Position numbers and translations under genes: made by a program
The notes under the pieces: generated by a model
Told to the model about the DNA's origin: nothing
The model's database searches: none
The model's input: the letters and a program-made list of their open reading frames with translations, nothing else
IMG/VR virus record: IMGVR_UViG_3300036832_001295
Span: 1-64,000 of that record
Direction: 5' to 3' (one strand)
Length of the DNA: 64,000 bases
Origin: a virus
In this document: positions 28,501 through 63,782 of the stretch, one piece after another
Layout: every line of letters starts with the position of its first letter
Position numbering within the stretch: the stretch's first letter is position 1

Positions 28501-30119
28501 ATGGCGTAGTCGGTGCCGCTGGTCTTGGTCAGCGCCTGCCCGGTGGTGCCACCGGCAGGCACACCTATCACGGTCTGATCTGCGGTCACCTGGACCCGGA
28601 AGTAGGCGATGTCGGTCGCACTGGCGGTCATCGAGACCTGGAACTGGTTATTCGACTGCGCGGACACCCGAGCCTGCAACGCCAGCGTCTGCCCATGGGT
28701 GATCGGATTGGCGTTCACCACGGCCAGCGCAGCGGTCTGCGTCGTGTTGGCGGCGACGTTGACGAAGGCGTTGCGGGTCAGCGGTGCCGCCCCGTTGACC
28801 GAGACGCCGAACTCCACCGTCCCGGTCCGGGTGGTGGTGTTCGTCAGGGTCATCTGGGCGGAGATCGTCGCGTCCCCGACCGGGATGTCGCGTCCGACCA
28901 CCAACGACAGGCCGAGATCCACCCACGGAGAAGGTGCGGCGACACCCGCAGCCTTGATCGTCACGCCGGTCTGGGTCGACGCGCTGATCTGGTAGCCGAG
29001 GGCCGGTGGCGCACCCCAGCCGAGGATCGCGTTGTTCGAGTTGTCGAAGCCCGCGATCACCAGCGGCGAGTCCTGCTGGCCGCCGAGCATGGTGGACATG
29101 GGCATCTGCGAGTCCAGCAGCAGACGCGGTGCACTGACGATGATGCCGTCCGGGGACGAGACGCCCAGCGCGTCGGCGTTCGGGTTCTCTACGTCGGGGA
29201 CGATGCCGATGGTGCCGGACGAGGCGTCGTAGGCGATCCCCAACGCGCCGGTCATCGTGTCCCCGGTGGTGTTCACGTACAACCCGTCCGCGATGGCCTG
29301 GTCAAGACCGGGCACCCCGACCTCCTGCCAGGGCGACCAGGCCTGCGTGGTGCTCCCGGTGGTGTAGGTGCGGAAGAAGCGTCGCCCGGAGGTCAACCCG
29401 GTCCAGGTCTGGGTCTGGGCCTGCGGCGTGTCGGTGGCGGTGCCGTCCACCCAGTCGTAGTCGGCCAGGTCGACGGTCAGGATCGCCTGCTCACCGGTCA
29501 GCGGGCCGCTGGCGGCGCGGTAGCTTCCGTTCATGAACACGTGATCCGGGTCGGCGCTGACATTGCCGGTGAACGACAACGGGGTCCACACCGACCAGAG
29601 GTTCTGCTGGCTGTGCCGCACCCACACGTCGTTGTTCAGGTCGGTGGTGTGTGGGCCGTCCGCGATCCACGTCTGGCTGATGTGCCGCAGTGACGGGTCG
29701 GCCCCCTGGCCGGTGCCGAAGACCTGCAAGACGCCGGTCGGGTCCTGCCCCTCGATGTCGACGCTGGCGACGTCCATCGCGATCGGCAACTGGGTGCGGT
29801 GGATCAGGTAGAAGCCCGGTTCGGTCAGGTCGTCGGCGGTGCCGACCCCGGTCATGTCCTGCAGCTGCCCCAGGCCGCCGTCGACCCCGGTCATGTCATC
29901 GGTGTCCACCCAGAAATCGCCGGTCTGTGCCGTGCCCGGCTCGTCCGGCTGGATGAAGACGTCCGGACCGTCCTCGCCGTCCGTACCCGGTGGACCTGCC
30001 GGGCCCGGTGGACCAGGCGGGCCGGGCGAGGTGGGCCAGACGTCGACATTCCCAGCGCCGCCGGTCCCGCCCAGGTCGAAGTCGATCGGGGTAGAGGCAG
30101 TTACCCGGTAGTTGGTCAT
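25563..30119 (-). CDS. long beta-solenoid tail fibre/adhesin
   Basis: start reset to ATG 30119 (ATGA overlap), 1518 aa; dozens of ~14 aa NTAVGxxAL/M repeats after an N-terminal collagen/fibre region. Confidence 0.85.
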   Translation of the reverse strand: MTNYRVTASTPIDFDLGGTGGAGNVDVWPTSPGPPGPPGPAGPPGTDGEDGPDVFIQPDEPGTAQTGDFWVDTDDMTGVDGGLGQLQDMTGVGTADDLTEPGFYLIHRTQLPIAMDVASVDIEGQDPTGVLQVFGTGQGADPSLRHISQTWIADGPHTTDLNNDVWVRHSQQNLWSVWTPLSFTGNVSADPDHVFMNGSYRAASGPLTGEQAILTVDLADYDWVDGTATDTPQAQTQTWTGLTSGRRFFRTYTTGSTTQAWSPWQEVGVPGLDQAIADGLYVNTTGDTMTGALGIAYDASSGTIGIVPDVENPNADALGVSSPDGIIVSAPRLLLDSQMPMSTMLGGQQDSPLVIAGFDNSNNAILGWGAPPALGYQISASTQTGVTIKAAGVAAPSPWVDLGLSLVVGRDIPVGDATISAQMTLTNTTTRTGTVEFGVSVNGAAPLTRNAFVNVAANTTQTAALAVVNANPITHGQTLALQARVSAQSNNQFQVSMTASATDIAYFRVQVTADQTVIGVPAGGTTGQALTKTSGTDYAIGWANVVGIDAHGSVLSQVFGEPANHNEGFGLGAMAAQTTGSGNNTAVGNSALAALTTAVNNTAVGYLALATNATGNFNTAVGELAMQLCTGPSGTAMGYRALQNSTVAGTAFGIQALCLNTTGAANTAVGNAALSNNTTGGSNVALGYNALLANVSGANNTAVGTSALQNATATGNTAFGWSALAGATSSGTNTALGYAAMQLSTSGGANVAVGYLALQNTTSGNQTAVGYAAMQQNTTGTANVGLGYQALNANTSGINNTALGYAALSTTVTGANNVAVGVNALSGNTNTTGYNTAVGSTCMQLSSGSQNVAVGYAALQNTTVSNQTAVGLNALKANTSGTGNTALGYVALAADTTGGSNTAVGSSALAANVDGSSSTAVGLGALAAVTTSASNTALGYNAMSGTTTASSCTAIGVSALQSNTATGLVAVGLNALKANTSGTGNIAMGYTTLQVNTTGASNTGLGHAALSLNQTGSNNTAVGILALSANVSGGTNTAVGSLAMQNANGIGGSVAVGYSTLAANTSASCISVAVGNNALKASTTGVNNTAVGYNAMTAATTAGSIVAVGTSTLAAMLTGNNNVALGYNAMNLSDACSFNVGVGSQALQNTIGNSNTAVGYNAMQNNTTGSGNTALGNGALSAIVAGSNNSVAIGANALSTATASDGQVAIGMNAMQIATAGSGSVAIGQNALYKASGAYNTAVGMSALQNTTTGQQNVALGYYAGNTLIANYNIAVGAQAMSAGAPTVNATENVAVGFNALKSLTDAAFNIAIGSSALLGNTTGAQNVAIGWQAMMKNTTVGSMVAVGYQALNNAAGAVACTALGYAALLSVTTGINNTGVGDNAVRSATTGASNTGVGYRPLFSLVDGSGNTALGYQANFSGASLAYTTALGYATVASGNGSVAIGTDSGAAGASTAVANQIALGTANHQVKISNNATGAASAALGANSPATVAAAPYTWFRMTSSDGTTVYVPAWK

Positions 30120-30871
30120 GAAGTCACCGTCACATCCCCGACCGCGATCGTGACGATCCCCTCCGGCAGGCTCAGGCGGCACTCCCACCGACAGACCGGC
30201 GGCAAAGTCACGGTGATGGTGTGGTCCAACATCAGGTGGATCACGTTGACGTTGACGGACAGCACGGTGAACACACCCAGCTGTTGACCGCCGTGGAAGA
30301 CGTCGGCGGCGACCATGTCGCCGCTCAGGTCGGCGGGGGCCCCGGTGTCCTGGTCGGTGAGAGTGAGGTCGAGGAAGTAGTCGTCGCCGCCCCGGAAACG
30401 GATGTTGACGATGGCCGGTTCGGCTTCCACGGTCTGCGGCGGTTCGGTCGGTTCCGGCGGGCCCGGCGGTATCTCCCCGGCAGGCAACGGCGGCCAGGCG
30501 GTGACCCGCGGGGTGACGGTGAGCACCCCGGAGGCGATCTTGGCGGTGTCCCCGTCGACCAGCCCGAAGCAGTCCCAGAAGCCGCGCCCGGAGGGCATCA
30601 GGGCGGTCACCGAGGCAGCCAGGTGCAGCAGCCATTGACCGACCGCGATGATCTGGATCAGGCCGTCGGCGGTGCCGGTGACATCCAGCCGGGCCAGCAG
30701 TTGGGAGTCGGGGTTGGTGTCCCGGCGCATCTCGATGACCGGCTCATCGACCGGCAGCGGGGTGACCGCGTCGGAGCGGTAGACCCAGAACGGTTCGGTG
30801 AACGCCGCCCCGCAGGCGATGCTCATCGCCAGCTGGGTGTTGCCGGGCAGCGTGTAGCTGGGCGCGCTCAC
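30116..30871 (-). CDS. tail/baseplate attachment-like protein (tandem beta domains)
   Basis: 251 aa; two similar domains ending SGVLTVT and VGDVTVT, BppU-N-like by recollection. Confidence 0.6.
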   Translation of the reverse strand: MSAPSYTLPGNTQLAMSIACGAAFTEPFWVYRSDAVTPLPVDEPVIEMRRDTNPDSQLLARLDVTGTADGLIQIIAVGQWLLHLAASVTALMPSGRGFWDCFGLVDGDTAKIASGVLTVTPRVTAWPPLPAGEIPPGPPEPTEPPQTVEAEPAIVNIRFRGGDDYFLDLTLTDQDTGAPADLSGDMVAADVFHGGQQLGVFTVLSVNVNVIHLMLDHTITVTLPPVCRWECRLSLPEGIVTIAVGDVTVTS

Positions 30872-30896: not shown

Positions 30897-31562
30897 TTAG
30901 CCCATCACGCAGACGTGCAGCATGTAGGTCTGGCTCTTCTCCTTGATCTGGATCGTCTGTGGGTGGAACGCCTCCGGGCAGAACGGACCGGCGGGCCCCT
31001 GCGGTCCTTGGACACCTTGCTTGCCCCGCGGGCCCGGTGCGCCACGTGGTCCGGCGGGACCCGCGGCCCCTTGTTTGCCGGTGGCCCCACGCTGGCCCTG
31101 TGCGCCCTGCTGTCCGGTCGCGCCGCGTGCCCCCTGCTGCCCGGTCGCGCCCTGCTGTCCTTGTGCGCCACGCGCTCCCGCGGCACCCTGGGCACCGGAC
31201 GCGCCGGGTGCGCCTTCGGGGCCTACCCTCCCAGGTTGGCCGGAGGTCCCCGGCGCTCCGTTGCGTCCCGCCGAGCCGGTTGCCCCGCTGGCCCCGGGAC
31301 TGCCTGCCGTCCCGGCTGGCCCGCTCGGCCCGGCACTGCCGGGGGTGCCGTTGGGTCCCATCAGCCCGGCACTGCCCGCCGGTCCCGGTGACCCGGCCGG
31401 ACCGGCAGGACCGCGGGGGCCGGGAATCCCGGCGTTGGCCTGCGCCTGCTTCTGGCCCAGCACCAGCGCCGCGACCGAGACGCTCAGCAGCAGCCCGGCG
31501 ATGATGAACGCCGCGCTAGCTTTGCCGAAGATCCGGTCCGCCCAACTCGTCACCTGGTTCAT
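30897..31562 (-). CDS. membrane-anchored collagen-like protein
   Basis: start ATG 31562; N-terminal TM helix, about 50 GXY triplets, C-terminal Cys pair. Confidence 0.8.
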   Translation of the reverse strand: MNQVTSWADRIFGKASAAFIIAGLLLSVSVAALVLGQKQAQANAGIPGPRGPAGPAGSPGPAGSAGLMGPNGTPGSAGPSGPAGTAGSPGASGATGSAGRNGAPGTSGQPGRVGPEGAPGASGAQGAAGARGAQGQQGATGQQGARGATGQQGAQGQRGATGKQGAAGPAGPRGAPGPRGKQGVQGPQGPAGPFCPEAFHPQTIQIKEKSQTYMLHVCVMG

Positions 31563-31824
31563 CGTCGTCCTCCTTCTCCGGTTCGGGTTCGGGCACCGCG
31601 ATGCCATGTTCGGCCAGCAGCATCATCAGTCGATAGTTGGCCAGTTCGGCCTGCACCCGACCGTGCCGCTCCTCGGCAAGCATCCCCTCGACCTCGCCTA
31701 GCTCGCCCTTGGCCGCCCGGCGTTCCTTGCTGCGCGCCGCCCGGATGGCCAGCAGCACTCCGGCGACGGCGGTGATGATCGCAGCCAGCCCGGTGACGAT
31801 GGCGACGATGTTGAAGGTGTCCAT
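31516..31824 (-). CDS. putative holin-like membrane protein
   Basis: start ATG 31824; one TM helix (FNIVAIVTGLAAIITAVAGVLLAI) plus coiled coil; directly downstream of the lysin. Confidence 0.6.
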   Translation of the reverse strand: MDTFNIVAIVTGLAAIITAVAGVLLAIRAARSKERRAAKGELGEVEGMLAEERHGRVQAELANYRLMMLLAEHGIAVPEPEPEKEDDDEPGDELGGPDLRQS

Positions 31825-32810: not shown

Positions 32811-32895
32811 ATTCCTTCGTATGGTGCGGTGCGGGTCGGACAGGGGGGCCTTGAACCGGGACGTTTGAAACCGTCAAGAAATAGAGGCGATGGTC

Positions 32896-32996
32896 TTGCA
32901 CACCTGGCGCTGGGATGTGCTACAGTTCCTGTGTCATCGCTTCCGCGGTGCAAACCACACAGGGTTCATAACCCACTACTCAAAGCCTATAGGAGG
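32896..32996 (+). promoter_or_regulatory. putative SigA-type promoter, leader hairpin and RBS of the RAMP-like operon
   Basis: TTGCAC (32896), 19 nt, TG-n-TACAGT (32921); CCTGTGT...ACACAGG stem; AGGAGG at 32991. Confidence 0.55.
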
Positions 32997-33002
32997 CTTA
33001 CT

Positions 33003-33650
33003 ATGACCGCAGCACCTACTGCTGCTCTGCACATCCCACGCATCAACGTGGAGACCCTGCTGGTGCCGATCCTCGGGACCAGCCCGCTGCTCGTGCACCA
33101 GTGGTCCCAGAAGGCCAAGCTGCAGATGCTCAACGCGCAGCAGGGCATCAAGACCATCAAGGAACCCCGCGACCCGCAGTCGGAGTACGAGGCCAGCCTG
33201 TACCGGGCCGGGGACGACGGCTACGGCATCCCGTCGGTCGCCTTCAAGGCGGCCACCGTGTCCGCGGCCCGCGTCTACGGCAAGGCGGTCCGGATGACCG
33301 AACTGCGCCAGTTCCTGTTCTTCCGCGGCAAGATGTACAAGGGCAACAACGGCAAGTTCAGCTGCAACCAACAGCTGTTCCTGCTCGACGGCACCCCGCA
33401 GATGCGCGAAGACATGGTCACCGTCGGCATCTCCGGCACCGACCTGCGCTACCGGGGCGAGTTCACCGAGTGGTCGACCACGCTGACCGTCGAGTACATC
33501 AAGTCCTCGATCACCAAGGAGTCGGTGCTCGGCATCATCGAGGCGGCCGGAACCACCGTCGGGGTCGGCGAGTGGCGGCCGGAGAAGGACGGCGAGTTCG
33601 GCACCTTCAAGCTCGACCCGTCCCGTGAGGTGCAGGTCATCTCGGCATGA
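33003..33650 (+). CDS. RAMP/Cas7-like protein, putative effector of the GGY-NN repeat system
   Basis: 215 aa from ATG 33003 with strong RBS; RAMP-like layout ILGTSPLLVH, YGIPSVAFKAA and C-terminal G-rich loop GVGEWRPEKDGEFGTF. Confidence 0.8.
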   Translation: MTAAPTAALHIPRINVETLLVPILGTSPLLVHQWSQKAKLQMLNAQQGIKTIKEPRDPQSEYEASLYRAGDDGYGIPSVAFKAATVSAARVYGKAVRMTELRQFLFFRGKMYKGNNGKFSCNQQLFLLDGTPQMREDMVTVGISGTDLRYRGEFTEWSTTLTVEYIKSSITKESVLGIIEAAGTTVGVGEWRPEKDGEFGTFKLDPSREVQVISA

Positions 33651-34015
33651 GCGGCGACCCGCAGCAGTGGTTGCGGACGGAGTTGAAGGGGGTGCGCGTC
33701 CGGCAGGGCGCGCTCACCCCGGCCACGTTGCTGGCTGACGTGACCCAGACCGGCCCGACGCATCCGCTCTATGACCGGTTCCTGTGGTCGGTGGACACGC
33801 CGCAGGACAAGGCCCAACTGGCCCGCATGCTGATCCACGAGGCCCATCCGGAGCAGGCCTGCCGCCAGGCCACCCTGGACGAGGTACAGGCCGGGTTCGC
33901 CCGGCTGGGGTTTTCCACCGGCAGCTTGCAGACCAACTACCACCGTGAGGACCACATTCTGTTCACGGTGGACGACGCACAGCGGCTGCTGGCCGCATTA
34001 GGGGGACAGTCATGA
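33647..34015 (+). CDS. accessory protein, divergent paralog of 34012..34467
   Basis: ATGA-coupled; GALTPATLLA...HPLYDRFLW. Confidence 0.75.
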   Translation: MSGDPQQWLRTELKGVRVRQGALTPATLLADVTQTGPTHPLYDRFLWSVDTPQDKAQLARMLIHEAHPEQACRQATLDEVQAGFARLGFSTGSLQTNYHREDHILFTVDDAQRLLAALGGQS

Positions 34016-34467
34016 GCTTCTCCGCCTACGAGGCGCAGCGGGAACTGATCACGCAGCTGGAAGAGGTTCGCGAACACCGCGGCGAACTGACCCCGCAGGC
34101 GGTGTTGGCCGAGGTCGAGGAGACCGGCAAGCGGCACCCGCTCTACGACCGGTTCGAGTGGAACAACCGGGTCGCCGGGCACGGCTACCGCCTCGACCAG
34201 GCGCACCGGCTGATCATGTCCGTGAAGGTGATCTTCCGGGGACCGACCGACGAGGAACGCAAGATCCGCAAGTACGTCGCGGTGCCGCAGCCGATGGCCC
34301 ACCAACCCAACTACGAGCCGATCGAGGACGTCGCGATGGACGACCTGAAACGCAAGCTGGTGCTGCAGGACGCGGAACGGCGCTGGAAGGCGTTGCGGAC
34401 CCAGTTCGGCCACCTGCAGGAGTTCATCGACCTGGTGCTGGGCGACCTGAACGGCAAGGCCAGCTGA
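34012..34467 (+). CDS. accessory protein of the RAMP-like operon
   Basis: ATGA-coupled; GELTPQAVLA...HPLYDRFEWNN...YRLDQAHRLI. Confidence 0.8.
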   Translation: MSFSAYEAQRELITQLEEVREHRGELTPQAVLAEVEETGKRHPLYDRFEWNNRVAGHGYRLDQAHRLIMSVKVIFRGPTDEERKIRKYVAVPQPMAHQPNYEPIEDVAMDDLKRKLVLQDAERRWKALRTQFGHLQEFIDLVLGDLNGKAS

Positions 34468-34470
34468 GCT

Positions 34471-34554
34471 AAACACGCTCGGCCAGGTGCCGATCGTGTT
34501 TGTCGAGATCCGGGATGCCCAACCGCGGGGGAGGGAGCATCCCGGATCTTCGGC
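34471..34554 (+). other. two stem-loops forming the array leader
   Basis: AAACACGcTCGGC-caggt-GCCGAtCGTGTTT (34471-34501) and GATCCGGGATGC...GCATCCCGGATC (within 34502-34554). Confidence 0.7.
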
Positions 34555-34561
34555 GTCTGCG

Positions 34562-34957
34562 GGCAGGGCTTGGTTCGGCACGGTTCGGCACGGCAGGGCT
34601 GGGCAGGCACGGCAAGGCTGGGCCCGTCGAGGTTCGGCGTGGCAAGGCCCGGCAGGCCAGGCAGGGTGTGGCACGGCACGTCGTGGCGGGGTTCGGCAGG
34701 GCTGGGCAGGCAAGGCGAGGCACGGCATGGCACGGCCTGGCGCGGCCGGGCAGGCAAGGCGTGGATGGCCCGGCGGGACGTGGCAAGGCGGGGCAGGCAC
34801 GGCTTGGTTGGGCACGGCAGGGCTAGGTTCGGCATGGCGGGGCAGGCAGGGCTTGGTGCGGCCAGGCGCGGTTGGGGTTGGCGCGGTGCGGCGGGGCAGG
34901 CGTGGCACGGCTTGTCATGGCTGGGCAGGGCTGGTCTTGGCGCGGCGTGGCAGGCTG
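34562..34957 (+). repeat. GGY-NN pentamer array 1 (putative guide ncRNA, about 8 units)
   Basis: period-5 GGC/GGT plus a variable dinucleotide, interrupted every 8-10 pentamers by GGCA. Confidence 0.9.
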
Positions 34958-34999
34958 TGCCGAACAGGTCAAACGGTGATCTGGTTAGGGGGAATCGGG

Positions 35000-35446
35000 A
35001 TGAAGATTCATACGCTGTTGGCGTTGGCCGCGGCCGGGGTGTGCACCGCCGGAATGGTGGTCTTCGCGGCACCGGCCTCGGCGGCGCAGTCGGAGTTGAC
35101 CCTCAACTGCACCGGCCTCGGCATGGTGACGGTGGCGACCAACAACAACAACTCATCCGAGCACGGTGGTTGGGGCGCGGCGCAGACCGTGAACATTCCC
35201 GGGCACGGTATCGCGACCTCGTTCTCCGGCACGATTACCGACCTGGTGACCGGCACCAGCGTGAGCTTCACCCAGGTCAAGGGCAACGGCAACGCCAACC
35301 AGAACACCACCGGGCAACCCACCATGTGCTCACAGACGATCACCGGCACGGTGGTCGACTTCACCGGGGGGTTCATCCCGCCGGGCATGTCGGGCTCTGA
35401 CCCGGCCACCTTCATGCTCACGGTGGGCGTGATTTACAAGGCCTGA
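35000..35446 (+). CDS. secreted protein embedded between the two arrays
   Basis: 148 aa; Sec signal MKIHTLLALAAAG...AAPASA-A; two Cys in the mature part; GC3-rich codons. Confidence 0.8.
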   Translation: MKIHTLLALAAAGVCTAGMVVFAAPASAAQSELTLNCTGLGMVTVATNNNNSSEHGGWGAAQTVNIPGHGIATSFSGTITDLVTGTSVSFTQVKGNGNANQNTTGQPTMCSQTITGTVVDFTGGFIPPGMSGSDPATFMLTVGVIYKA

Positions 35447-35449
35447 CTC

Positions 35450-38300
35450 GGCAGGCAGGGCTTGGCGGGGCATGGTTCGGCGCGGCATGGCACGGTGTGG
35501 CAGCCAGGGCACGGCGCGGCACGGCACGGCCTGGCTCGGCGCGGCAGGCGCGGCGCGGCGCGGCGGGGTCGGGCCCGGCCTGGTGCGGCGAGACATGGCG
35601 CGGCGAGGCAGGCATGGTGTGGCTCGGCCTGGCTCGGCAAGGCAGGGCAGGCACGGCATGGTTGGGCTCGGCGCGGTTGGGCGTCGCAGGGCTTGGCAGG
35701 CAGGGCGAGGTGTGGCGGGTCCAGGCATGGCGCGGCAGGCATGGCCCGGCGCGGCTCGGTACGGCAAGGTGGGGCGTGGCAGGCGGGGTTGGGTTCGGTT
35801 TGGCATGGCGCGGTTGGGCACGGCACGGCTCGGCAGGCGTGGCTTGGCGTGTCGAGGCGGGGCTGGGTTCGCTGGGCCAGGCGGGGCAGGGCAGGCGTGG
35901 CTGGGCGGGTTCCGGCAAGGCAAGGCATGGCCAGGCAGGCACGGCCCGGTTCGGTATGGCACGTCGTGGCCAGACTTGGCTTGGCAGGCGTGGCTTGGTG
36001 TGGCACGGCCGGGTCAGGCACGGTTGGGCGCGGCAGGCTCGGCGAGGCGTGTCATGGCAAGGCTCGGCTAGGTAGGGCACGGCAGCCGAGGCCTGGTGAG
36101 GCAGGGCAACGCGAGGCATGGCTAGGCCCGGCAGTCGGGGCGTGGCATGACCCGGTGTGGCAGGTCACGGCAAGGCGTGGCGCGGCAGGCACGGCTAGGT
36201 CGGGCGCGGATCGGCGTGGCATGGCGTGGCAGCTAAGGCGCGGCGGGGCACGGCACGGCTGGCTAGGCAAGGCTCGGCCCGGTGCGGCATGGCAGGTCAG
36301 GGCAGGCGTGGCAGGGTGCGGCAGGGTCAGGCGCGGCAGGGCTAGGCGGGGCTTGGCAGGCAAACGTGGTTTAGCTGGGCCCGGCGTGCCGGGGCACGGT
36401 GGGGCGTGGCAGGCAGAGCAAGGCTCGGCTTGGTTCGGCGTGGCATGGCAGGCAGGGCTAGGCAAGGTATGACAAGGCTGGGTGCGGCATGGCGTGGCTG
36501 GCATTCGTGGTTTGGCTGGGCGGGCCGCGGCGGGGCAGGCAAGGCATGGCTTGGCATCGCATGGTGTGGCTCGGCTAGGCGCGGCAGGGCAGGCAGGCGA
36601 GGCCGGGCAGGCAGGGCTGGATTCGGCCGGGCATGGCTTGGCGCGGTTTGGCAGGCAAGGCAGGCATGGTGAGGCACGGCAGGGCACGGCGCGGCTAGGC
36701 GCGGCAGGCGAGGCAGGGCCCGGCTAGTCCAGGTGCGGCGGGTCGCGGCCGGGTTCGGCAGGGCAGGCTCGGTTGGGCTGGGCGGGGCGTGGTTTGGCAA
36801 GGCAGGGTTGGGCACGGCAGGCAGGCAGGGCGTGGTTGGGCTCGGGCGGCTGGGCACGGCAGGGCAGGCACGGCGGGTCCGGGCGAGGCTCGGCAAGGTC
36901 CGGCCTGGCGGGGTAGGGCCTGGCAGGCGAGGCGGGGTGTGGCGGGGCCTGGCGGGTCAAGGCACGTCATGGCGCGGCAGGCATGGCGAGGCAGGGCTTG
37001 GTCCGGCAGGGCACGTCCCGGCTTGGCTTGGCAGGCTCGGCCAGGCGCGGTTGGGCGAGGCATGGCAAGGCAGGGCTCGGCCAGGCAGGCATGGCCCGGC
37101 GAGACCCGGCTCGGCTCGGTGCGGCATGGCGCGGCATGGCAGGCAGGGCGCGGCGCGGCCAGGCGAGGCCGGGCTTGGCTCGGTCCGGCCTGGCGAGGCG
37201 AGGCAGGCATGGCCCGGTATGGCACGGTGCGGCACGTCCCGGCGTGGTATGGCAGCCGAGGCCCGGCTTAGCGTGGCAGGTCTTGGCGAGGCCTGGTGTG
37301 GCACGGCAAGGCAGGGCGTGGCAGGCATCGCGTGGTGTGGCACGGCCCGGTGGGGCACGGCTTGGCAGGCATCGCACGGCGCGGCATGGCAGGTCGAGGC
37401 AAAGCCTGGCGGGCACGGCAGGCATGGCCCGGTCCGGTTCGGCACCGCACGGCGGGGCATGGCAGGCATGGTTCGGCTTGGCGTGGTGTGGTGGGGCACG
37501 GCAGGGCACGGCAGGCAGGGCTCGGCGTGGTTCGGCACGGCACGGTGTGGCGTGGCTTGGCGGGCAGGGCTCGGCCGGGTTGGGTACGGCGTGGTCAGGC
37601 GAGGCGCGGCGCGGTGTGGCAGGCAGGGCTCGGTACGGCGGGGCATGGCAGGGTGTGGCTAGGCCCGGCGGGCATGGCATGGCGCGGCAAGTCCAGGCGA
37701 GGCGCGGCGAGGCGTGGCGAGGCGAGGCGAGGCAGGCAAGGCAAGGTCGGGCAGGGCACGGTATGGCCCGGTGTGGTTGGCATGGCGCGGCATGGCAGGC
37801 AGGGCGCGGCAGGCTGGGCTCGGCACGGCTAGGCGCGGCTCGGCAAGGCGTGGTGGGGCAGCCGGGGCTGGGCGAGTTGGGCATGGCCGGGCGCGGCGTG
37901 GCAGTCCAGGCAGGGCAGGACGAGGCAGGGCTAGGCGCGGCTTGGCAGGGCAGGCTTGGCCCGGCGGGGCATGGTTGGGCTAGTCAAGGTCGGGCATGGC
38001 AGGCAGGGCAGGGCTTGGCCCGGCAACGCAGGGCTTGGCCCGGCGCGGCAGGCACGGCAGGGTTAGGCGGGGCGGGGTCCGGCTAGGCCTGGCAGGCAAG
38101 GCGGGGCAGGTCCCGGCTTGGTTGGGCACGGCTCGGCGCGGCAGGCGTGGCAGAGTTCGGCGAGGCTAGGCGTGGCAAGGCCCGGCTAGGCAGCCACGGC
38201 GGGGCCTGGCCAGGCATGGCAAGGTGAGGTGCGGCGCGGCATGGCAGGCGTGGCTTGGCGTGGCACCGTGTGGCCACGCGTGGCACGGCACGGCAGGCTC
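35450..38300 (+). repeat. GGY-NN pentamer array 2 (putative guide ncRNA, roughly 55-60 units by hand estimate)
   Basis: about 2.85 kb of period-5 GGY-NN with GGCA (occasionally GGCT/GGCG) punctuation; strong G skew; no coherent ORF. Confidence 0.92.
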
Positions 38301-38317
38301 GGAAAACCGGGCCTGCC
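38292..38317 (+). terminator. stem-loop closing the array
   Basis: GGCAGGCTCGG-AAAA-CCGGGCCTGCC, 11 bp stem with one G-U pair, at a convergent junction; no U-tract. Confidence 0.65.
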
Positions 38318-38320
38318 CGC

Positions 38321-38494
38321 TCACCCCTCGCTGTCGCTGCACCCCACGTCGCGGTACTCCACCTCGGTCGTCTGGCTCGGCGGGTCCACCTGCGGGTAGT
38401 CGTAGTCCTCGACCAGGTCGAAGCGTTCCTCCTCGTAGGAGGTCTCCGGCGGCGGCGGCTCCTCGGTCGGCTCCGGGATCGGCACCTCGCTCAT
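38321..38494 (-). CDS. small acidic protein
   Basis: 57 aa from ATG 38494 with GGGAGAG RBS. Confidence 0.55.
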   Translation of the reverse strand: MSEVPIPEPTEEPPPPETSYEEERFDLVEDYDYPQVDPPSQTTEVEYRDVGCSDSEG

Positions 38495-38504
38495 CGTCTC
38501 TCCC

Positions 38505-39299
38505 TCAGTAGGTGAACAGCCGGGTCCAGTCGCCCCGCCACACCTGGCCGACATGCTTGCTGCGCGGGGTGTGCTTCTTCTGCCACTTGGTCACCGCGGC
38601 GGTAGTAGTTGCTCCGTAGACGCCCGGGGTCCACTTGCCGCCGAAGCCGAGGGCCGCCAGCCGGTTCTGGATGGCCTGGATGTCCGGGCGTTCGGCGACG
38701 TAGTAGCCGCCGTGGCTGGTGTTCGGCCCGGCGATCGGCCCGAAGTAGTGGCCCTTCTTCATGTAGGAGGGCCAGCGGCGGCGCAACTTCTTCTCCTTGC
38801 CCGGTTTGGCCGGTGCCTTGGGGGCCGAACCCTGCCCGCAGAAGACCTGCGCGACCCGCTGCCAGGCGGGTCCGTCGTTGACGTAGGCGCGGTGCCCGGA
38901 CAGATGCACGTGCCAAAGATGTGATTTGTCCGAACTGACCCATTTCAGGGTCTGCACGTCCAGCCCGGTGACGTCCTTGCCGTTGACGGTGCCGAAGAAC
39001 TCGCGCAGCGTCTGCATCCGCACGTCGTGCGCCTTGGCGGCGTTGATCAGCCGTTGGGTGACCTTGCGCATCTGCGCCGCGGGCAGCGTGACGTCCAGGG
39101 CGGACGCGGCCTGCCCGTCGCCCTTGCGGTCGATCGGTTGGGTCACCGAATAGTCGTCCTTGGGCAGCACGTCCCGGCAACGGTGGTAGCCGTAGGCGTG
39201 GCTGCGGTCCCCGACGATGCCGGACAGCTGCGCCTGCGGGATGAAATGGTGGATGGTGTTGTAGGCCGCCTGGATCGCCTGCGGGGCATATTCGCTCAT
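38505..39299 (-). CDS. second lysin: putative Zn peptidase (M15-like) plus peptidoglycan-binding domain
   Basis: GYH...ALDV...HLWHVHLS metal ligands; C-terminal DIQAIQNRL...GVYGATTTAAVTKWQ...GQVW PG-binding pattern. Confidence 0.75.
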   Translation of the reverse strand: MSEYAPQAIQAAYNTIHHFIPQAQLSGIVGDRSHAYGYHRCRDVLPKDDYSVTQPIDRKGDGQAASALDVTLPAAQMRKVTQRLINAAKAHDVRMQTLREFFGTVNGKDVTGLDVQTLKWVSSDKSHLWHVHLSGHRAYVNDGPAWQRVAQVFCGQGSAPKAPAKPGKEKKLRRRWPSYMKKGHYFGPIAGPNTSHGGYYVAERPDIQAIQNRLAALGFGGKWTPGVYGATTTAAVTKWQKKHTPRSKHVGQVWRGDWTRLFTY

Positions 39300-39314: not shown

Positions 39315-39557
39315 TCAGCCCACACCGTCACCGGGCAGGGCAACCGTAACCCGGCCTCCCGTTATCCACTGCCCCCAGACCGACCTGATCCGGGGACCGG
39401 GCGGCGGCAGCACCGGCACCTCGACGTTGACCAGCGCCCGGCAGCACCGGCAGCGGTACTCCCGGTAGGCGGCACCATCCAGCGTGATGCAGGACCGCTC
39501 GTCACTGTCCAGGTCCTGCTGCCCGCAGTTCGGGCAGACCGCGCCGATCTCACACAT
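39315..39557 (-). CDS. small Cys-rich zinc-ribbon protein
   Basis: CPNCG...CRCC; GTG start overlapping the portal end. Confidence 0.5.
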   Translation of the reverse strand: MCEIGAVCPNCGQQDLDSDERSCITLDGAAYREYRCRCCRALVNVEVPVLPPPGPRIRSVWGQWITGGRVTVALPGDGVG

Positions 39558-42375
39558 CCTCTTCCTCTTCCTCCTCGTCGCCGTAATGGGTGTCCCCGGC
39601 CAGCTTCGGCACCGCGGAGGTGTCCAGATACTTGCGCATTCCGTACACCTTCGGGTCCCCGAAACGCCCGGTCGGCCGGTAATGGGTCGGGTCGTCTTCC
39701 TCGGAGTTGTCCGGGGCGATCCAGTGCCGTTTGGTGACCACGCTGATGCCGAAGCGCTGCCCCGGCTGGTACCCGGCCAGCTTGCTCAGCTTGGCCGCCT
39801 TCTTCCGGGGCCGTTTGCCGTCCTTGTTGTCCTTCGGCGCGTCCTCGCGCTCCTCGTCGGACTCCTCCGGGCCGGACTCCTGGCCGGGCATCGGGGCGGG
39901 CAACCCCAACGCCGGGTTGCCGACCGGCGGGGCGTTGATGTCGCCTTGCTCGGCCATCATCGCCTGCTCCGGGTCCGGCGACATCACCGGGTTGTCGTCC
40001 ACCCCCATGCCCAGCGAAGGCACCGCCGCGTCGTTGGCGTTGTAGACCGGCGAGGGCTGGCTGCCCGCCTCGATCGCCTTCGGGGCGAAGTCGGCGGCCA
40101 GGTCCGCCGGGATCGGGTAGCCCTCCCGTTGCAGGGACTGGAAGATCTTGCGGCGGGTGTCCTGCTCGGCGACCGCCAGGGCCACCGCCTCCTCGCTACG
40201 CTGCTCGATGGCCTCGTTGAACTCGATGCCGGTGGTGGACAGCCGCTGCTTGTACGGGATCGGCACCCCGGCCGCGGCGAGGGTCTCCACGAACTGCCGC
40301 TCGGTCTCCTCATCGGAGATGTTCAGCGTCTTGAAGGTCAGCCGCGGGATCAGCAGCTTGGGCTGTTCGATGATGCGTTCCTCGCCGGACTCCTCGTCTA
40401 TCTCATAGATCTCCTCGGTGATCAGGTACCGTTTCCCGCCGCGCACCTCGTAGTCGAAATGCTCCTGCGCCTCGGCGACGATCGCGGCCCGGTCGAAGAC
40501 GAACTTGGCCAGCATCCGCTGGTAGTGGGTCAGCAGCTGGGTGACCACATCCCTGTTCAAGGCATCCGCGGCGTAGGTCTCCCCGGCCTGCGCGCCGGTC
40601 AGCATCGTCTGAGACAGCCCGAACACCATCAAGATCCGTTCGGTGATCCGGTCGAAGTCGTTGGACAGGTCCGGCACGTTCTCCCGGCCGAAGACCGGCT
40701 GCATGTCGATCGCCCAGTGGTAGGTCAGCACCCGGAAATCGGCGGCCAGCGCCGCGTCCAGGGAGGCGTTGAACTCCTCCATGTCCTCCTGAGTGGGGAT
40801 CCACGGGGTGCCGGTGCCCAGGTCCTGCGCGGTCGCGCCCAGCTTGGTCAGGATCAGCGGGGTGTAGAGCCGATCGGCGATGGAGTCCAGCGCGGAGTTC
40901 AGCATCTCCTCCTGGATGATCATCCGGAAGGCCCGCATCAGCAGCGGGATGCCACGGTTAGAAAACCGGTCGGCCTTGAACCGCAGCTGCTTCAGGATGA
41001 TGTTGGAGACGGGCATCAGCGCGTCTTCCTGGGCGTAGTTCAGCAGTTCCGGGAACTGCCGGACCAGCTGCGTGTACTGCCAGTGCGGGGTGCGGCTGGT
41101 GAGCACCTTGCGCAGCGACTCGGGCAGCCGCATCAGGTACCGCGGGTCGTTCAGGAACAGCGACTTCTCGATCTCCACGTCATCCGGGTTGATCAGTTCG
41201 TCGGCTTCCCAGACGCCCAGCGTGTCGTTCCAGCCGCCCAGCGCCCAGGACTCGCCGGACAACCAGTACTCGGTGCCCAGGTCGAGCAGGAAGTCCTCGA
41301 AGTTCAGCTGGTCGAAGAACAGGTCGGAGTAGAAGTCGATCAGCTGCTGGTCCTGGCATTCGAAGGCCATGCCCTGCATCGGCAGCTTGGAGTAGACGTC
41401 GATGCAGGCCGGGATCACCGGGTGGGTGACGTAAAGCAGGCGGCAGTTCTTGGACTGGTAGCCCCAGGCGACGTAGTTGCCGGTGCTGGTCTGCATGCTG
41501 ATCACGGTGGCGGTGCCCGCGTCGGTAACCGAGAGCACCTTGTCCGGCCCGCCGTGCGGCAGGGTGTACCAGCGCCCGACCGCGTTCATCCCGGACTCCA
41601 CCGAAGACAGCCCGAACAGTTCGTCGCCTTCGTTGGCGACGAAGTACTCGGTAGTGATCTTGCCGGTGTCGATCGGGTGACCGCGCAGGTCGACCTGCTG
41701 ACGGCCGAACCACGGGTTGAACCAGCGGTGGTCGGGGGTGCAGGTGATGACCTGGCCGGAGGCCATGGTCAGCTTCACCACCGGCACGTCATCGCGGGAC
41801 AGAGTGGCCAGCACGGTGGCCGGGAGGTAGTGCACGCCCAGCCCGCCGTTGCTGTGCAGCGTGTACTTCCAGCCCTGCACCGCATCGCCGGGGGTGATCT
41901 CACCCAGCGGTTTGGAGGTGCCGTCGGCCATCAGGATCGGCGCGTCCGGGGTATTGCAGAACTCCCGGATCCGTTCCAACTCGACCGGGTCGGTGAAGTT
42001 GAAGGGCAGGTTGTTCTGCCGCCAGTACCACATCGGGTCACGCGGGCGGGCGGTGGCGATCTGCATCGAGCCACCGGTCCCGTAGGCCGCGGTGCGGCGC
42101 ATCGACGTGCCGACCGCCCGGGAGCCGCTCAGCCGGTTGTTGATGGTGCGCTCGGGCAGGTGCGGGGCCCCGAACGGCAACCCGGCAGGGGTGCGCTGGT
42201 CGGACTCGCGGACCCGCCGGGTCGCGACCCGGCGCGGCGACGCGATGTTGGCTCCGGTGCCGGGCAGGTCCGGCAGCGGCACCCGGCGGCCCCGCCGGTC
42301 GGTCACGGAAAAGTCGGCCACGTTACTTCGCGGCCCCAGCCGGGTGACGGGCAGCGGGTCGCCCGCTAGGTTCAC
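39550..42375 (-). CDS. portal protein (Bxz1-like) containing an intein; exact start uncertain
   Basis: RPRDPMWYW, IDVYSKLP, RGIPLLMRAFR, IADRLYTPLIL.KLG and ALAADFR recognised from cluster C portals. Confidence 0.88.
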   Translation of the reverse strand: MNLAGDPLPVTRLGPRSNVADFSVTDRRGRRVPLPDLPGTGANIASPRRVATRRVRESDQRTPAGLPFGAPHLPERTINNRLSGSRAVGTSMRRTAAYGTGGSMQIATARPRDPMWYWRQNNLPFNFTDPVELERIREFCNTPDAPILMADGTSKPLGEITPGDAVQGWKYTLHSNGGLGVHYLPATVLATLSRDDVPVVKLTMASGQVITCTPDHRWFNPWFGRQQVDLRGHPIDTGKITTEYFVANEGDELFGLSSVESGMNAVGRWYTLPHGGPDKVLSVTDAGTATVISMQTSTGNYVAWGYQSKNCRLLYVTHPVIPACIDVYSKLPMQGMAFECQDQQLIDFYSDLFFDQLNFEDFLLDLGTEYWLSGESWALGGWNDTLGVWEADELINPDDVEIEKSLFLNDPRYLMRLPESLRKVLTSRTPHWQYTQLVRQFPELLNYAQEDALMPVSNIILKQLRFKADRFSNRGIPLLMRAFRMIIQEEMLNSALDSIADRLYTPLILTKLGATAQDLGTGTPWIPTQEDMEEFNASLDAALAADFRVLTYHWAIDMQPVFGRENVPDLSNDFDRITERILMVFGLSQTMLTGAQAGETYAADALNRDVVTQLLTHYQRMLAKFVFDRAAIVAEAQEHFDYEVRGGKRYLITEEIYEIDEESGEERIIEQPKLLIPRLTFKTLNISDEETERQFVETLAAAGVPIPYKQRLSTTGIEFNEAIEQRSEEAVALAVAEQDTRRKIFQSLQREGYPIPADLAADFAPKAIEAGSQPSPVYNANDAAVPSLGMGVDDNPVMSPDPEQAMMAEQGDINAPPVGNPALGLPAPMPGQESGPEESDEEREDAPKDNKDGKRPRKKAAKLSKLAGYQPGQRFGISVVTKRHWIAPDNSEEDDPTHYRPTGRFGDPKVYGMRKYLDTSAVPKLAGDTHYGDEEEEEEDV
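41446..41958 (-). mobile_element. mini-intein (171 aa, no endonuclease) in the portal
   Basis: starts CNTPDAPILMADG, block B CTPDHRW, ends TGNYVAWGYQSKN followed by +1 Cys; removal gives RIREF-CRLLYVTH. Confidence 0.88.
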
Positions 42376-59144: not shown

Positions 59145-59263
59145 ACCTGGGTCACCTGAAGTTTGGGGGCTGCCGCCCCGCCCGTACGGCCGAACGTGGC
59201 CTGCGCGCCATGTCAAGACGCAGGGTGCCCCACGCTCTACGGGGCGGCAGCCGGTCTGTGGGG

Positions 59264-60914: not shown

Positions 60915-60953
60915 GGTGGTAGCTCCTTGGGTTGTCGTAACTGACTGGTGCTC

Positions 60954-61007
60954 ACGCTACCTGTCGTAACCCAGGGGCGCAAGCTATATGGCATTAGCTT
61001 TGTTGTG
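60954..61007 (-). promoter_or_regulatory. repeated early promoter
   Basis: CACAACAAAGCTAA...TTGCGC-17-TAGCGT. Confidence 0.75.
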
Positions 61008-61068
61008 GTGTGGGACACAGGGGAAGCGGGCAGGGCTGCCCACCACAAACAGCCCCGCCCGCAAGCTC

Positions 61069-61392
61069 TCAGCCGCAGTCCATCTCCGGGTGGCCGCGGT
61101 ACTTGACCAGCACGCAGCCCATCCCGCCTGCGCCGTAGTCGCCCAGCGGGGCGTAGCAGGCGTCCTCGGTCTGGCCCTCGTCGGTGATCATTCGGCCGGT
61201 GACGTAGCGGATGCCGTCATCGTCGTACATCGAGAAGCGGTAGATCACCGCATCCGCGGGCAACGGCTTGTTGCCGTTGAGCACCGCGCACAACTCGTCC
61301 GGGGCCTCTCTGGGGCCCATCACGCCCGCGGCGCTGTGGTCGTCCGGGCCCTCGGCCAGGTGATCCTTGTCGATGATCCATGCGTAGCTCAT
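61069..61392 (-). CDS. hypothetical early protein
   Basis: start ATG 61392; FSMYDDDGIRY.G motif. Confidence 0.7.
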   Translation of the reverse strand: MSYAWIIDKDHLAEGPDDHSAAGVMGPREAPDELCAVLNGNKPLPADAVIYRFSMYDDDGIRYVTGRMITDEGQTEDACYAPLGDYGAGGMGCVLVKYRGHPEMDCG

Positions 61393-61434
61393 TTGGTGGC
61401 TCCTTGTAACAGTGGTTAGTAGCTGATGAGTACA

Positions 61435-61488
61435 ACCGTAATGGTTGCAACCCAGTGATGCAAGCCCTAGGGCGTTAGCTTTGTTGTG
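61435..61488 (-). promoter_or_regulatory. repeated early promoter
   Basis: CACAACAAAGCTAA...TTGCAT-17-TACGGT. Confidence 0.75.
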
Positions 61489-61495
61489 ATGTGGG

Positions 61496-62083
61496 TCACG
61501 AATCCAACAGGATGGCCAACTCGTCCAGGGTGATCTCGACCCGGTCCTTGCGCAGGGCGGGGTCCAGCTTGCGTACCAGGCTGTCCAGACCGCGGGCCTG
61601 GGCCAATGGGATGAGCGCACGACGCTGCTCGGCAAGCTGCTGCCGGTACGCCTCCATCCGGGCCTCATGGACCGCAGAGGCATGCGCAACCTCTGCCTTG
61701 CGTACGGCGTGAGTGGTCCATAGCTCGGCCACCTCGGCACCGGTCCGAAATTCCAGACTCAGCTTGACAGTGCCGAACCCGGGCACATCGCGGGTGATGA
61801 TGCGGGCCACGATGTCCTCGTCGGTGATGCTGGCCAGGTCGACGGCGGCGAGCAGATCGGCAGCCTTGTCCTTCTCGGTCCAGCTGACATTCTGCGGGGA
61901 GAGGAACACGTAGCCGTGCCGGTAGGCGCTGTAGGGCTTGCGGCCGGTGTAGCGGCGGGTGCCATGGCTGGTGGACGTCCAGGTGTCCAGGCTGACCAGC
62001 CTGGCCGGGTAGTGGTTCAAGGCGTACTTGTTTGCTCGGCCGACGGCGTAGACCTCGCCGACCTTCATCTCGCTCTTGTTCAT
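61496..62083 (-). CDS. hypothetical early protein
   Basis: start ATG 62083 after AAGGAGCCACC. Confidence 0.7.
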   Translation of the reverse strand: MNKSEMKVGEVYAVGRANKYALNHYPARLVSLDTWTSTSHGTRRYTGRKPYSAYRHGYVFLSPQNVSWTEKDKAADLLAAVDLASITDEDIVARIITRDVPGFGTVKLSLEFRTGAEVAELWTTHAVRKAEVAHASAVHEARMEAYRQQLAEQRRALIPLAQARGLDSLVRKLDPALRKDRVEITLDELAILLDS

Positions 62084-62120
62084 GGTGGCTCCTTGTAGCA
62101 GTGAGTAGTTGATGGGTTCC

Positions 62121-62174
62121 ATCGTAATCGTTGCAACCCATTGGTGCAAGGCCTATGGCGTTAGCTTTGTTGTG
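62121..62174 (-). promoter_or_regulatory. repeated early promoter
   Basis: CACAACAAAGCTAA...TTGCAC-17-TACGAT. Confidence 0.78.
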
Positions 62175-62205
62175 ATGTGGGTCACCGCGTCCACTCGGTA
62201 CTGGC

Positions 62206-63620: not shown

Positions 63621-63720
63621 TGTGGTGGCTCGCTTTCTGACGAGTAGCAATGTGACTGTATGAATCAATCGTAGCAGACGTGTCAAGCGCTTCCTGCGTT
63701 GACCGGATCTGATGCGTAGA

Positions 63721-63775
63721 ACACTAGCGACCTCAAAGTCAGCGGTGCAAGCCCTATGGCGTTAGCTTTGTTGTG
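63721..63775 (-). promoter_or_regulatory. repeated early promoter
   Basis: CACAACAAAGCTAA...TTGCAC-18-TAGTGT. Confidence 0.72.
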
Positions 63776-63782
63776 GGCTGGG

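What the first reader, a model, noticed from the sequence alone, without database searches (positions are those of the whole stretch)
32896..38317. Phage RAMP/Cas7-like gene with ~3.2 kb of GGY-NN pentamer arrays: candidate non-CRISPR RNA-guided system
Seen: a plus-strand operon of promoter, 215 aa gene, two coupled paralogous genes, hairpin leader, two non-coding arrays with a constant GGC/GGT triplet alternating with a variable dinucleotide, and a closing hairpin. Known: the protein has the RAMP layout (N-terminal strand with GxxPL, internal xxP-helix, C-terminal G-rich loop), and Cas7-type RAMPs polymerise along RNA with a fixed nucleotide step. Inferred: each pentamer binds one subunit through GGY and presents NN for pairing. 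No cas1/cas2, nuclease or classical repeat-spacer array is in the window. From memory this matches the recently reported VIPR architecture, which I cannot verify here, so novelty may lie in the details below.
Basis: partly seen in the sequence, partly recalled or inferred. Interest (0 to 1): 0.97.

Follow-up and report, generated by a model that had tools for sequence, protein, structure and literature searches.

The report
Phage VIPR locus, giant guide array
This soil phage carries a member of the recently described VIPR RNA-guided silencing systems, with one of the longest guide arrays seen among its relatives, so it is a striking example of a known kind of system and not a new one.

Summary
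At 33003-38317 (+) lie a 215-aa RAMP gene, two translationally coupled small genes, a strong double hairpin, and two non-coding arrays split by a 148-aa secreted-protein gene. The arrays hold 590 pentamers; 526 start with GGC or GGT.

The interpretation also holds, but it is already published. Three 2026 bioRxiv preprints describe VIPR: a Vipr RAMP polymerises on GGY/NN repeats and reads DNA with a one-nucleotide skip. The window's protein matches the solved SUSP1 Vipr by sequence (E 7e-7; profile 2.6e-8). It keeps the residues aligned to R138, W178 and R179, has Glu at D177, and probably keeps H17. Its model folds like Csm and type VII backbone subunits.

Of 150 homologous loci, 117 carry a same-strand array and 133 carry the accessory gene. 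A 4-nt GGCA unit shifts the register about every 10 pentamers, as in the preprint's "staggered arrays". It cuts this array into 74 blocks, 57 of them with 7-13 pentamers. At about 3.2 kb the array is second longest of 151.

No target of this window's guides was found. Overlapping notes in this scan cover this same stretch, not other DNA.

Verdict: new member of a known kind.

The parts
32811..33002 (.). Intergenic region between the divergent lysin A-like gene (minus strand, start 32810) and vipr. This is the presumed promoter region.
   Evidence: ORF list. The sigma-70 scan found no site. The promoter is inferred from divergent gene starts only.
33003..33650 (+). vipr, a 215-aa RAMP protein.
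   Evidence: phmmer to PDB 36pp_D 'SUSP1 Vipr protein', E 7e-7. Profile search E 2.6e-8, the only hit at E up to 0.01. AlphaFold2 pLDDT 86.3. Foldseek top hits are Csm and type VII complex chains, E 3.6e-6. phrog_4652 E 5.8e-40.
33647..34015 (+). vapA-like gene, 122 aa. It looks like a partial duplicate of the accessory gene.
   Evidence: 4-nt overlap with vipr. 51% identity to vapB over residues 4-48 only. tblastn hits in 15 of 150 loci. In the 13 of these that fell among the 60 rows printed, the hit covers mainly the N-terminal part of vapA and lies within the vapB-homologous gene.
34012..34467 (+). vapB, the conserved Vipr accessory gene, 151 aa.
   Evidence: phrog_15946 E 2.9e-22. A homologue lies next to vipr in 133 of 150 loci. 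AlphaFold2 pLDDT 91.3. Residues 1-108 resemble winged-helix domains only weakly (Z up to 5.8). No Foldseek hit at E up to 0.001.
34471..34554 (+). Two adjacent leader hairpins between vapB and array 1.
   Evidence: -55 kcal/mol, z -4.4. The closest relative L004 has a hairpin in the same position with a different sequence. Stems of 9 or more pairs occur upstream of arrays in 12 of 99 loci against 4 of 89 controls, so this is not a family-wide feature.
34562..34963 (+). vrRNA array 1, in 9 blocks.
35000..35446 (+). 148-aa gene with a signal-peptide-like N terminus, lying between the arrays.
   Evidence: ORF. Four metagenomic homologues, E 6e-37 to 1.5e-19, one named by JGI 'membrane-bound inhibitor of C-type lysozyme'. 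No homologue in 150 VIPR loci. No Pfam or PHROG family.
35450..38295 (+). vrRNA array 2, in 65 blocks.
38292..38317 (+). Closing hairpin with an 11-bp stem and a 4-nt loop.
   Evidence: z -2.2 for the 66-nt stretch folded around it. It abuts the 3' end of a minus-strand ORF at 38321..38554.

Best explanation
The locus is a VIPR (Viral Interference Programmable Repeat) system of the staggered-array kind, carried by a large actinophage-like virus from soil.

Shown here by homology: the 215-aa protein is a Vipr RAMP, and the arrays are GGY/NN repeats co-oriented with it.

Inferred from the SUSP1 work: the operon and arrays are transcribed from the plus strand. One Vipr protomer binds each pentamer, holds GGY through the G-loop and thumb, and presents NN. 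Each block of about 8-13 pentamers forms one guide filament. The filament pairs with double-stranded DNA at NN-x-NN-x spacing and blocks transcription of a competing mobile element. vapB assists, perhaps by binding DNA.

My own inference: the 4-nt GGCA unit shifts the GGY register by one base. That ends one filament and starts the next, so guide length would be set without a Cas6-like nuclease, and host RNases would trim the exposed joints.

The targets of this phage's 57 full-length guides remain unknown.
For: Protein.
- Sequence homology to the solved SUSP1 Vipr.
- In those alignments SUSP1 R138, D177, W178 and R179 align with R151, E190, W191 and R192. All four are invariant among 40 relatives.
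- H17 aligns with H32, but only in a low-scoring stretch.
- RAMP fold: 85 Foldseek matches at E up to 0.001, led by Csm and type VII complex chains.

Array.
- Period 5 is present and period 3 is absent.
- 89% of pentamers carry a GGY anchor, and the NN entropy is near its maximum.
- Only 1 pair among the 57 blocks is similar.

Family.
- 117 of 150 homologous loci have a same-strand array; 1 has an opposite-strand array.
- 4-nt staggers occur in 95 of 96 loci with 20 or more pentamers; GGCA accounts for 613 of about 800 four-mers.
- Block lengths are mostly 8-13, within or near the 9-16 repeats per vrRNA given in the preprint.
- The legend of fig. S18 describes staggered arrays with a 1-nt overlap between neighbouring vrRNAs.
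- vapB is conserved in 133 of 150 loci.

Skip rule in this clade.
- A 13-NN guide of L040 matches the vipr gene of L092 at 25 of 26 positions.
- A 10-NN guide of L009 matches vipr of L012 at 19 of 20 positions, and the window's own vipr (33582..33610) at 18 of 20.
- Both matches are in codon phase with the wobble base skipped. Both guides mismatch their own locus's vipr, at 18 of 26 and 15 of 20.

Context.
- No Cas1, Cas2 or CRISPR-type repeat.
- No hammerhead or other Rfam family.
- The record is viral, with portal and lysin genes like those of actinophages.
Against: - No RNA data exist for this DNA, so transcription, processing at GGCA and RNP formation are untested.
- No target was found for this window's guides.
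  - Own contig: mean best match 0.735, the same as shuffled guides.
  - 1.14 Mb of related loci: 0.803 against 0.792 for shuffles.
  - Six guide patterns gave 0 exact hits in viral contigs.
  - One pattern gave 0 exact hits in genome contigs.
  - One GC-rich core gave 51 metagenome hits, spread over unrelated gene families.
  - One 8-NN core gave 17 viral hits, none extending beyond 4 of 8 flank bases.
- Counted by distinct guides, matches to vipr and vap genes at 2 or fewer mismatches are not enriched: 8 of 624 against 6-8 in shuffles. The apparent excess of 33 hits against 9 comes from one guide hitting many homologous genes. Support for the skip rule in this clade therefore rests on two long guides.
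- The antisense codon-position-1-2 model fits the NN composition no better than a uniform model: lnL -1470 against -1472.
- D177 of SUSP1 is Glu here.
- The preprint states that staggered arrays were not among the architectures confirmed by small-RNA sequencing.
- The winged-helix likeness of vapB is weak.
Confidence: 0.9

Rival explanations
1. It is a VIPR system, but its guides silence host genes such as defence genes, and not competing phages or satellites.
For: - Earlier unchecked notes of this scan decoded block 37034 as a TIR-like motif and block 37088 as a GHKL-like motif. My decode reproduces those degenerate peptides.
- 42 of 57 blocks fit antisense codon positions 1-2 better than sense.
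- No phage target was found in any scan.
Against: - The TIR-like pattern has 0 exact matches in genome contigs and 0 in viral contigs.
- It has 1 match at 2 or fewer mismatches in 401 genomes of the order of a Gordonia MAG, which is no more than chance.
- It has 0 matches at 3 or fewer mismatches in five actinobacterial genomes that carry Vipr homologues.
- The GHKL-like and P-loop-like patterns have 0 exact hits in viral contigs.
- Reading motifs from 148 degenerate peptides carries a large look-elsewhere effect.
- The strand bias is driven largely by AG (55) over CT (13). AG is also the commonest first dinucleotide after a stagger.
Confidence: 0.07
2. The arrays act as DNA or as bulk RNA and not as guides. 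Examples would be G-rich structure-forming repeats, or a sponge that soaks up rival phages' Vipr protein.
For: - G content is 49-50% with GG every 5 nt.
- The array is far longer than the family median of 244 nt.
- No targets were found.
- Rival VIPR systems do aim at vipr genes, so counter-measures are plausible.
Against: - NN is nearly maximally diverse and the blocks are almost all different. A sponge or structural repeat does not need that.
- Block lengths match published guide lengths.
- Strict co-orientation with vipr in 117 loci against 1 points to a transcript.
- The phage encodes its own intact Vipr.
Confidence: 0.03
3. The region is protein-coding, for Gly/Ala/Arg-rich ORFs, or it is a CRISPR-like array.
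For: Many ORFs of 50-367 aa are listed across the arrays on both strands. In Gordonia phage UmaThurman the equivalent array is annotated as CDS gp40.
Against: - Period 5 without period 3.
- ORFs open in several frames on both strands are what a G-rich, stop-poor repeat gives.
- No repeat-spacer structure and no cas1 or cas2.
Confidence: 0.01

Closest known systems
VIPR with staggered vrRNA arrays (bioRxiv 10.64898/2026.04.26.720920, text and legend of fig. S18; the figure and supplementary tables were not visible)
   Same: - A Vipr RAMP gene with an accessory gene and GGY/NN pentamers on a virus.
- Neighbouring guides share one base, which shows up here as a 4-nt GGCA unit.
- No cas genes.
   Different: - I could not assign a type (I-VII), because the classification data are in figures and supplements.
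- The array is about 3.2 kb with 74 blocks, second longest of 151 loci examined.
- The array is split by a secreted-protein gene.
- There is an extra partial duplicate of the accessory gene.
- The preprint says this architecture was not among those confirmed by small-RNA sequencing.
SUSP1 type II VIPR (PDB 36pp; bioRxiv 10.64898/2026.04.26.720927, sections 5-6 read; 10.64898/2026.10.15.759431, search listing and passages only)
   Same: - Homologous Vipr with a conserved thumb Arg and a G-loop (D/E)-W-R.
- GGY/NN repeats in units of about 9-16.
- A relative's guides obey the 1-nt skip in codon phase.
   Different: - SUSP1 has four separate vrRNAs of about 100 nt, each with a conserved 3' tail and pseudoknot.
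- Here there is no tail, only a register shift between units.
- Detectable sequence similarity covers only the C-terminal 60-120 residues.
- The host is probably an actinobacterium.
Class 1 CRISPR backbone subunits (Cas7/Csm3; type III-A Csm and type VII complexes)
   Same: RAMP fold: Foldseek E 3.6e-6 to 1e-4, TM about 0.45-0.55. Both polymerise along a guide RNA at a fixed step. That these chains are the Cas7-type subunits is recalled, not shown by a call.
   Different: - 10-15% sequence identity.
- No repeat-spacer array, cas1, cas2 or Cas6.
- A 5-nt step with 2 read bases, instead of 6 nt with 5 read.
Gordonia phages UmaThurman (gp39) and ODay (gp19)
   Same: vipr homologues at about 65% nucleotide identity, each followed by a same-strand GGY/NN array and a vapB homologue.
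   Different: - Arrays of only about 290 and 140 nt.
- Genomes of 50-59 kb, one with an integrase.
- In UmaThurman the array is annotated as a hypothetical protein.

Membership tests
VIPR | A Vipr protein: a single-RRM RAMP with G-loop and thumb, homologous to characterised Vipr. | tested here: met
   36pp_D SUSP1 Vipr at E 7e-7 and profile E 2.6e-8. The model has pLDDT 86.3. Csm and type VII chains lead the Foldseek list.
VIPR | Residues that hold GGY in SUSP1: H17, R138, D177, W178, R179. | tested here: met
   They align with H32, R151, E190, W191 and R192. R151, E190, W191 and R192 are invariant and H32 nearly invariant in 40 relatives. D177 is Glu here. The H17-H32 pairing comes from a low-scoring aligned stretch.
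VIPR | Tandem GGY/NN pentanucleotide repeats next to vipr on the same strand. | tested here: met
   In the family, 117 of 150 loci have a same-strand array against 1 with an opposite-strand array.
VIPR | Guide units of about 9-16 repeats with a defined boundary. | tested here: met
   57 blocks of 7-13 pentamers (mode 9), bounded by 4-nt GGCA. No 3' tail or pseudoknot of the SUSP1 kind and no Rfam ribozyme. This agrees with the staggered architecture of the fig. S18 legend.
VIPR | An adjacent accessory (vap) gene. | tested here: met
   A vapB homologue lies beside vipr in 133 of 150 loci. Which of vap1-6 it is could not be told. The DNA-binding fold is only weakly suggested.
VIPR | No cas genes or CRISPR array; viral carrier. 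| tested here: met
   The record is only 62% complete by CheckV's estimate.
VIPR | vrRNAs expressed, processed and bound by Vipr. | not testable with these tools
   See Tried and rejected.
VIPR | Guides match DNA targets under the 1-nt skip rule. | tested here: inconclusive
   No target was found for this window's guides. Two long guides of relatives match rival vipr genes at 25 of 26 and 19 of 20 positions, in codon phase. There is no enrichment by distinct guides.
CRISPR-Cas (class 1) | A repeat-spacer array and an adaptation module (cas1, cas2). | tested here: not met
   Only the RAMP fold is shared.

The most novel reading that the evidence does not exclude
The 3.2-kb staggered array is a nuclease-free guide factory. 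A one-base register shift at each GGCA ends one Vipr filament and starts the next, so a single transcript yields about 57 different guides whose length is measured by the protein itself. In this reading the repertoire is aimed largely at targets other than rival phages, for example host genes read antisense to their mRNAs. That would make this a phage-borne multiplex silencer of the host.
Probability: 0.12. Interest if true: 0.7.

Novelty: new member of a known kind. Interest (0 to 1): 0.36.

Why it matters
VIPR is months old as a concept, and its biology has been worked out in E. coli and Pseudomonas systems with a few tailed guides each.

This locus shows the other extreme. One actinophage-like virus carries 74 blocks, 57 of them full-length, in tail-less arrays punctuated only by a register shift. 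That architecture is the one the preprint says was not confirmed by RNA sequencing.

Cultured Gordonia phages (UmaThurman, ODay) carry small versions of the same clade. The processing question could therefore be answered at the bench with available phages.

The family survey here also shows three further points:
- Guide repertoires are almost entirely private to each locus. Only 1 of the 54 guides of this window with 8 or more pentamers has a near-identical counterpart elsewhere.
- Some guides of relatives aim at the conserved C-terminal motif of rival vipr genes while sparing their own.
- Phage annotations mislabel such arrays as protein genes.

Tried and rejected
Target hunting
- Self-targets on the 85.7-kb record: none.
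- Related loci, 1.14 Mb: no excess over shuffled guides.
- Exact 1-nt-skip patterns:
  - Blocks 37034, 37088, 34655 and 36926, and cores of 37255 and 37142, in viral contigs: 0 hits each.
  - Block 37034 in genome contigs: 0 hits.
  - Core of 35547 in metagenome contigs: 51 hits in unrelated families (a transporter-like family, a sensor-like family, an efflux-pump-like family and others). None matched both flanking dinucleotides, so I read them as chance in GC-rich coding DNA.
  - 8-NN core of 36295 in viral contigs: 17 hits, flanks at most 4 of 8, mostly low-GC contigs, so chance.
- Exact scans cannot see targets with one mismatch. Absence here is therefore weak evidence.

Codon-phase likelihoods
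- The wobble-skip phases beat the other phases by 150-360 lnL units. This largely reflects the high GC3 of the reference genes.
- The best model equals a uniform model.

Leader hairpin as a family feature: rejected.

Expression: no RNA holder listed. One soil-metagenome DNA run holds the stretch and may be its source.

Type assignment (I-VII) and the vap number were not possible, because the figures are not held and supplements are closed. Those files may also show whether arrays this long, or this clade, are already listed.

vapB: no PDB sequence match and no Foldseek match at E up to 0.001. VIA-align gave only Z up to 5.8 to winged-helix proteins.

Full report
WHAT IS THERE

The window is the first 64 kb of an 85,708-bp IMG/VR virus record, linear and 62% complete by CheckV's estimate. 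The stretch sits between minus-strand lysis and structural genes. A lysin A-like gene ends its reading at 32810. A portal gene lies at 39550..42375. Their nearest cultured relatives are phages of Mycobacterium, Gordonia and Rhodococcus, and the portal is 37-41% identical to those of 135-158-kb phages.

The plus-strand cassette reads as follows:
- vipr, 33003..33650.
- A 122-aa gene, 33647..34015, and a 151-aa gene, 34012..34467. Each overlaps its neighbour by ATGA.
- Two hairpins, 34471..34554, at -55 kcal/mol and z -4.4.
- Array 1, 34562..34963.
- A 148-aa gene with a signal-peptide-like start, 35000..35446.
- Array 2, 35450..38295.
- An 11-bp hairpin, 38292..38317.

THE ARRAYS ARE REAL AND NON-CODING

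Base identity at lag 5 is 0.58, against 0.27-0.28 in coding controls, and the lag-3 signal of coding DNA is missing. A parse into GGY-anchored units gives 590 pentamers, 526 of which begin with GGC or GGT. The NN entropy is 3.87 of 4 bits.

Seventy-eight 4-nt units, nearly all GGCA, shift the register by one base. They cut the arrays into 74 blocks. Fifty-seven blocks hold 7-13 pentamers, with a mode of 9. Tandem Repeats Finder independently reports periods of 5n+4. Only one pair of blocks is alike. The many ORFs listed across the arrays are what a stop-poor G-rich repeat produces.

THE PROTEIN

Pfam gives nothing above threshold. PHROGs places the protein in phrog_4652, of unknown function. 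The family is large: 1,968 of 2,321 candidates at E up to 0.001, and 3,315 50%-identity representatives.

phmmer against PDB sequences finds 'SUSP1 Vipr protein' (36pp_D) at E 7e-7. A 40-sequence profile finds it, and nothing else, at 2.6e-8 over positions 79-197.

The structural preprint names H17, R138, D177, W178 and R179 as the residues holding GGY. These align with H32, R151, E190, W191 and R192. Four of these are invariant in the alignment and H32 is nearly so. The H17 pairing rests on a weak aligned stretch.

The AlphaFold2 model (pLDDT 86.3, pTM 0.80) matches chains of type III-A Csm and type VII effector complexes best, at E 3.6e-6 and TM about 0.5, with 85 matches at E up to 0.001.

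THE LITERATURE

A full-text search found bioRxiv 10.64898/2026.04.26.720920. I read its Results, Discussion and four methods sections. It defines VIPR as follows:
- A phage-borne ancestral RAMP, an accessory vap gene, and vrRNAs of 9-16 YNNGG repeats.
- DNA recognition with a 1-nt skip that tends to fall on the wobble base.
- Silencing of competing elements.
- Seven types.
- 'Staggered arrays with overlapping vrRNAs', whose neighbours share one nucleotide.

Staggered arrays are not among the architectures the text says were confirmed by RNA sequencing. Sections 5-6 of 10.64898/2026.04.26.720927 give the filament structure. A third preprint, 10.64898/2026.10.15.759431, has no occurrence of 'staggered', 'actino', 'mycobacteri' or 'gordonia' in a term search. 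That search returned only two methods passages, so I did not read its content.

THE FAMILY SURVEY

I fetched 80 viral loci, 68 loci from bacterial genomes and two Gordonia phages. Among the bacterial loci, the closest are in Actinomycetota: a Gordonia MAG, Kribbellaceae, Micromonosporaceae, Streptomyces and Microbacterium.

- Of these 150 loci, 117 have a GGY period-5 array of at least 40 nt near vipr on the same strand, and 1 has one on the other strand.
- Several of the 33 loci without an array are cut off next to vipr, or are distant relatives.
- Array length has a median of 244 nt, a 95th percentile of 933 nt and a maximum of 3,926 nt (L012). The window's 3,167 nt ranks second of 151.
- In 95 of 96 loci with 20 or more pentamers there is about one 4-nt unit per ten pentamers. 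GGCA accounts for 613 of roughly 800 four-mers.
- A vapB homologue lies beside vipr in 133 of 150 loci. The 122-aa gene resembles only vapB's first 45 residues. The 148-aa gene has no counterpart in these loci.
- In UmaThurman the array is annotated as CDS gp40.

TARGETS

This window's guides have no match on their own contig and none in 1.14 Mb of related loci beyond what shuffled guides give. Nine exact pattern scans of public collections gave nothing convincing.

Its pattern has no exact match in 596 Gb of genomes. It has one match at 2 or fewer mismatches in 401 genomes of the order of a Gordonia MAG. I do not support that reading.

Across the family, 624 unique guides were scanned against all vipr and vap genes. 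This gave 33 hits at 2 or fewer mismatches under the 1-nt skip, against about 9 for shuffles, and 31 of the 33 were in codon phase. By distinct guides, however, there is no excess: 8 against 6-8.

What stands is two long guides:
- L040, 25 of 26 positions, on the vipr gene of a Streptomyces caeni locus.
- L009, 19 of 20 positions, on vipr of L012, and 18 of 20 on this window's vipr.

Both lie on the conserved E-K-x-G-(D/E)-(F/M)-G-T motif. Both skip the wobble base, and both mismatch their own vipr. [quoted passage not shown]

Guide sets are private. Only 1 of the 54 guides of this window with 8 or more pentamers has a near-identical counterpart elsewhere, in L004.

VERDICT

The locus is a member of the published VIPR family with the published staggered architecture. 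Its scale is remarkable: 74 blocks, the second longest array of 151 loci. It also has a gene embedded in the array and a partial duplicate of the accessory gene.

The mechanism is inferred from SUSP1. The idea that the register shift sets guide length is my inference. The targets are unknown.

Noticed in passing
L002 (Gordonia phage UmaThurman NC_031249.1) 6581-6876: The CDS annotated as gp40 'hypothetical protein' (locus 6589-6912) is a GGY/NN array with GGCAG staggers directly after the vipr homologue gp39. It is probably a mis-called gene.
   Followed up: partly
window 33582-33610: A 10-NN guide of another viral contig (L009, at 8621) matches this phage's own vipr at 18 of 20 NN positions in codon phase, on the conserved C-terminal motif. 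This phage may itself be a target of rival VIPR systems.
   Followed up: partly
window 36365-36380 and 36506-36521: Two exact copies of a 16-nt motif lie inside array 2, and a third copy with 2 mismatches lies at 36788. The first two each follow a double GGCA and sit in blocks with degenerate anchors. The chance expectation is 0.15 matches. They could be internal landmarks such as a promoter or processing site. The block at 36363 is also the only one shared with the closest relative L004.
   Followed up: partly
window 35000-35446: A 148-aa protein with a signal-peptide-like start is encoded between the two arrays, and array 2 begins 4 nt after its stop codon. It has four metagenomic homologues, one named MliC-like by JGI, and none in 150 other VIPR loci.
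   Followed up: partly
window 60934-63789: A 50-85-nt intergenic element occurs in four copies (60972, 61453, 62139, 63740), sharing an 18-mer that is exact in three copies. These may be repeated promoters or operators of an early-gene block.
   Followed up: no
L012 8728-12653 (IMGVR_UViG_3300043313_001352): This is the only locus with a longer array than the window: 3.9 kb, 683 pentamers and 120 four-mers. Here the array lies between vipr and the vapB homologue, preceded by a stem scored 15.5 (G-U pairs counted as half).
   Followed up: no
window 25563-30635 (-) and 30897-31607 (-): A 1,690-aa ORF has a collagen-like stretch and hundreds of residues of N-T-A-V-G-type repeats. It sits next to a 236-aa collagen-like ORF. 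Both are probably tail-fibre proteins.
   Followed up: no
window 59172-59246 (-): A single tRNA-Val (GAC) gene.
   Followed up: no
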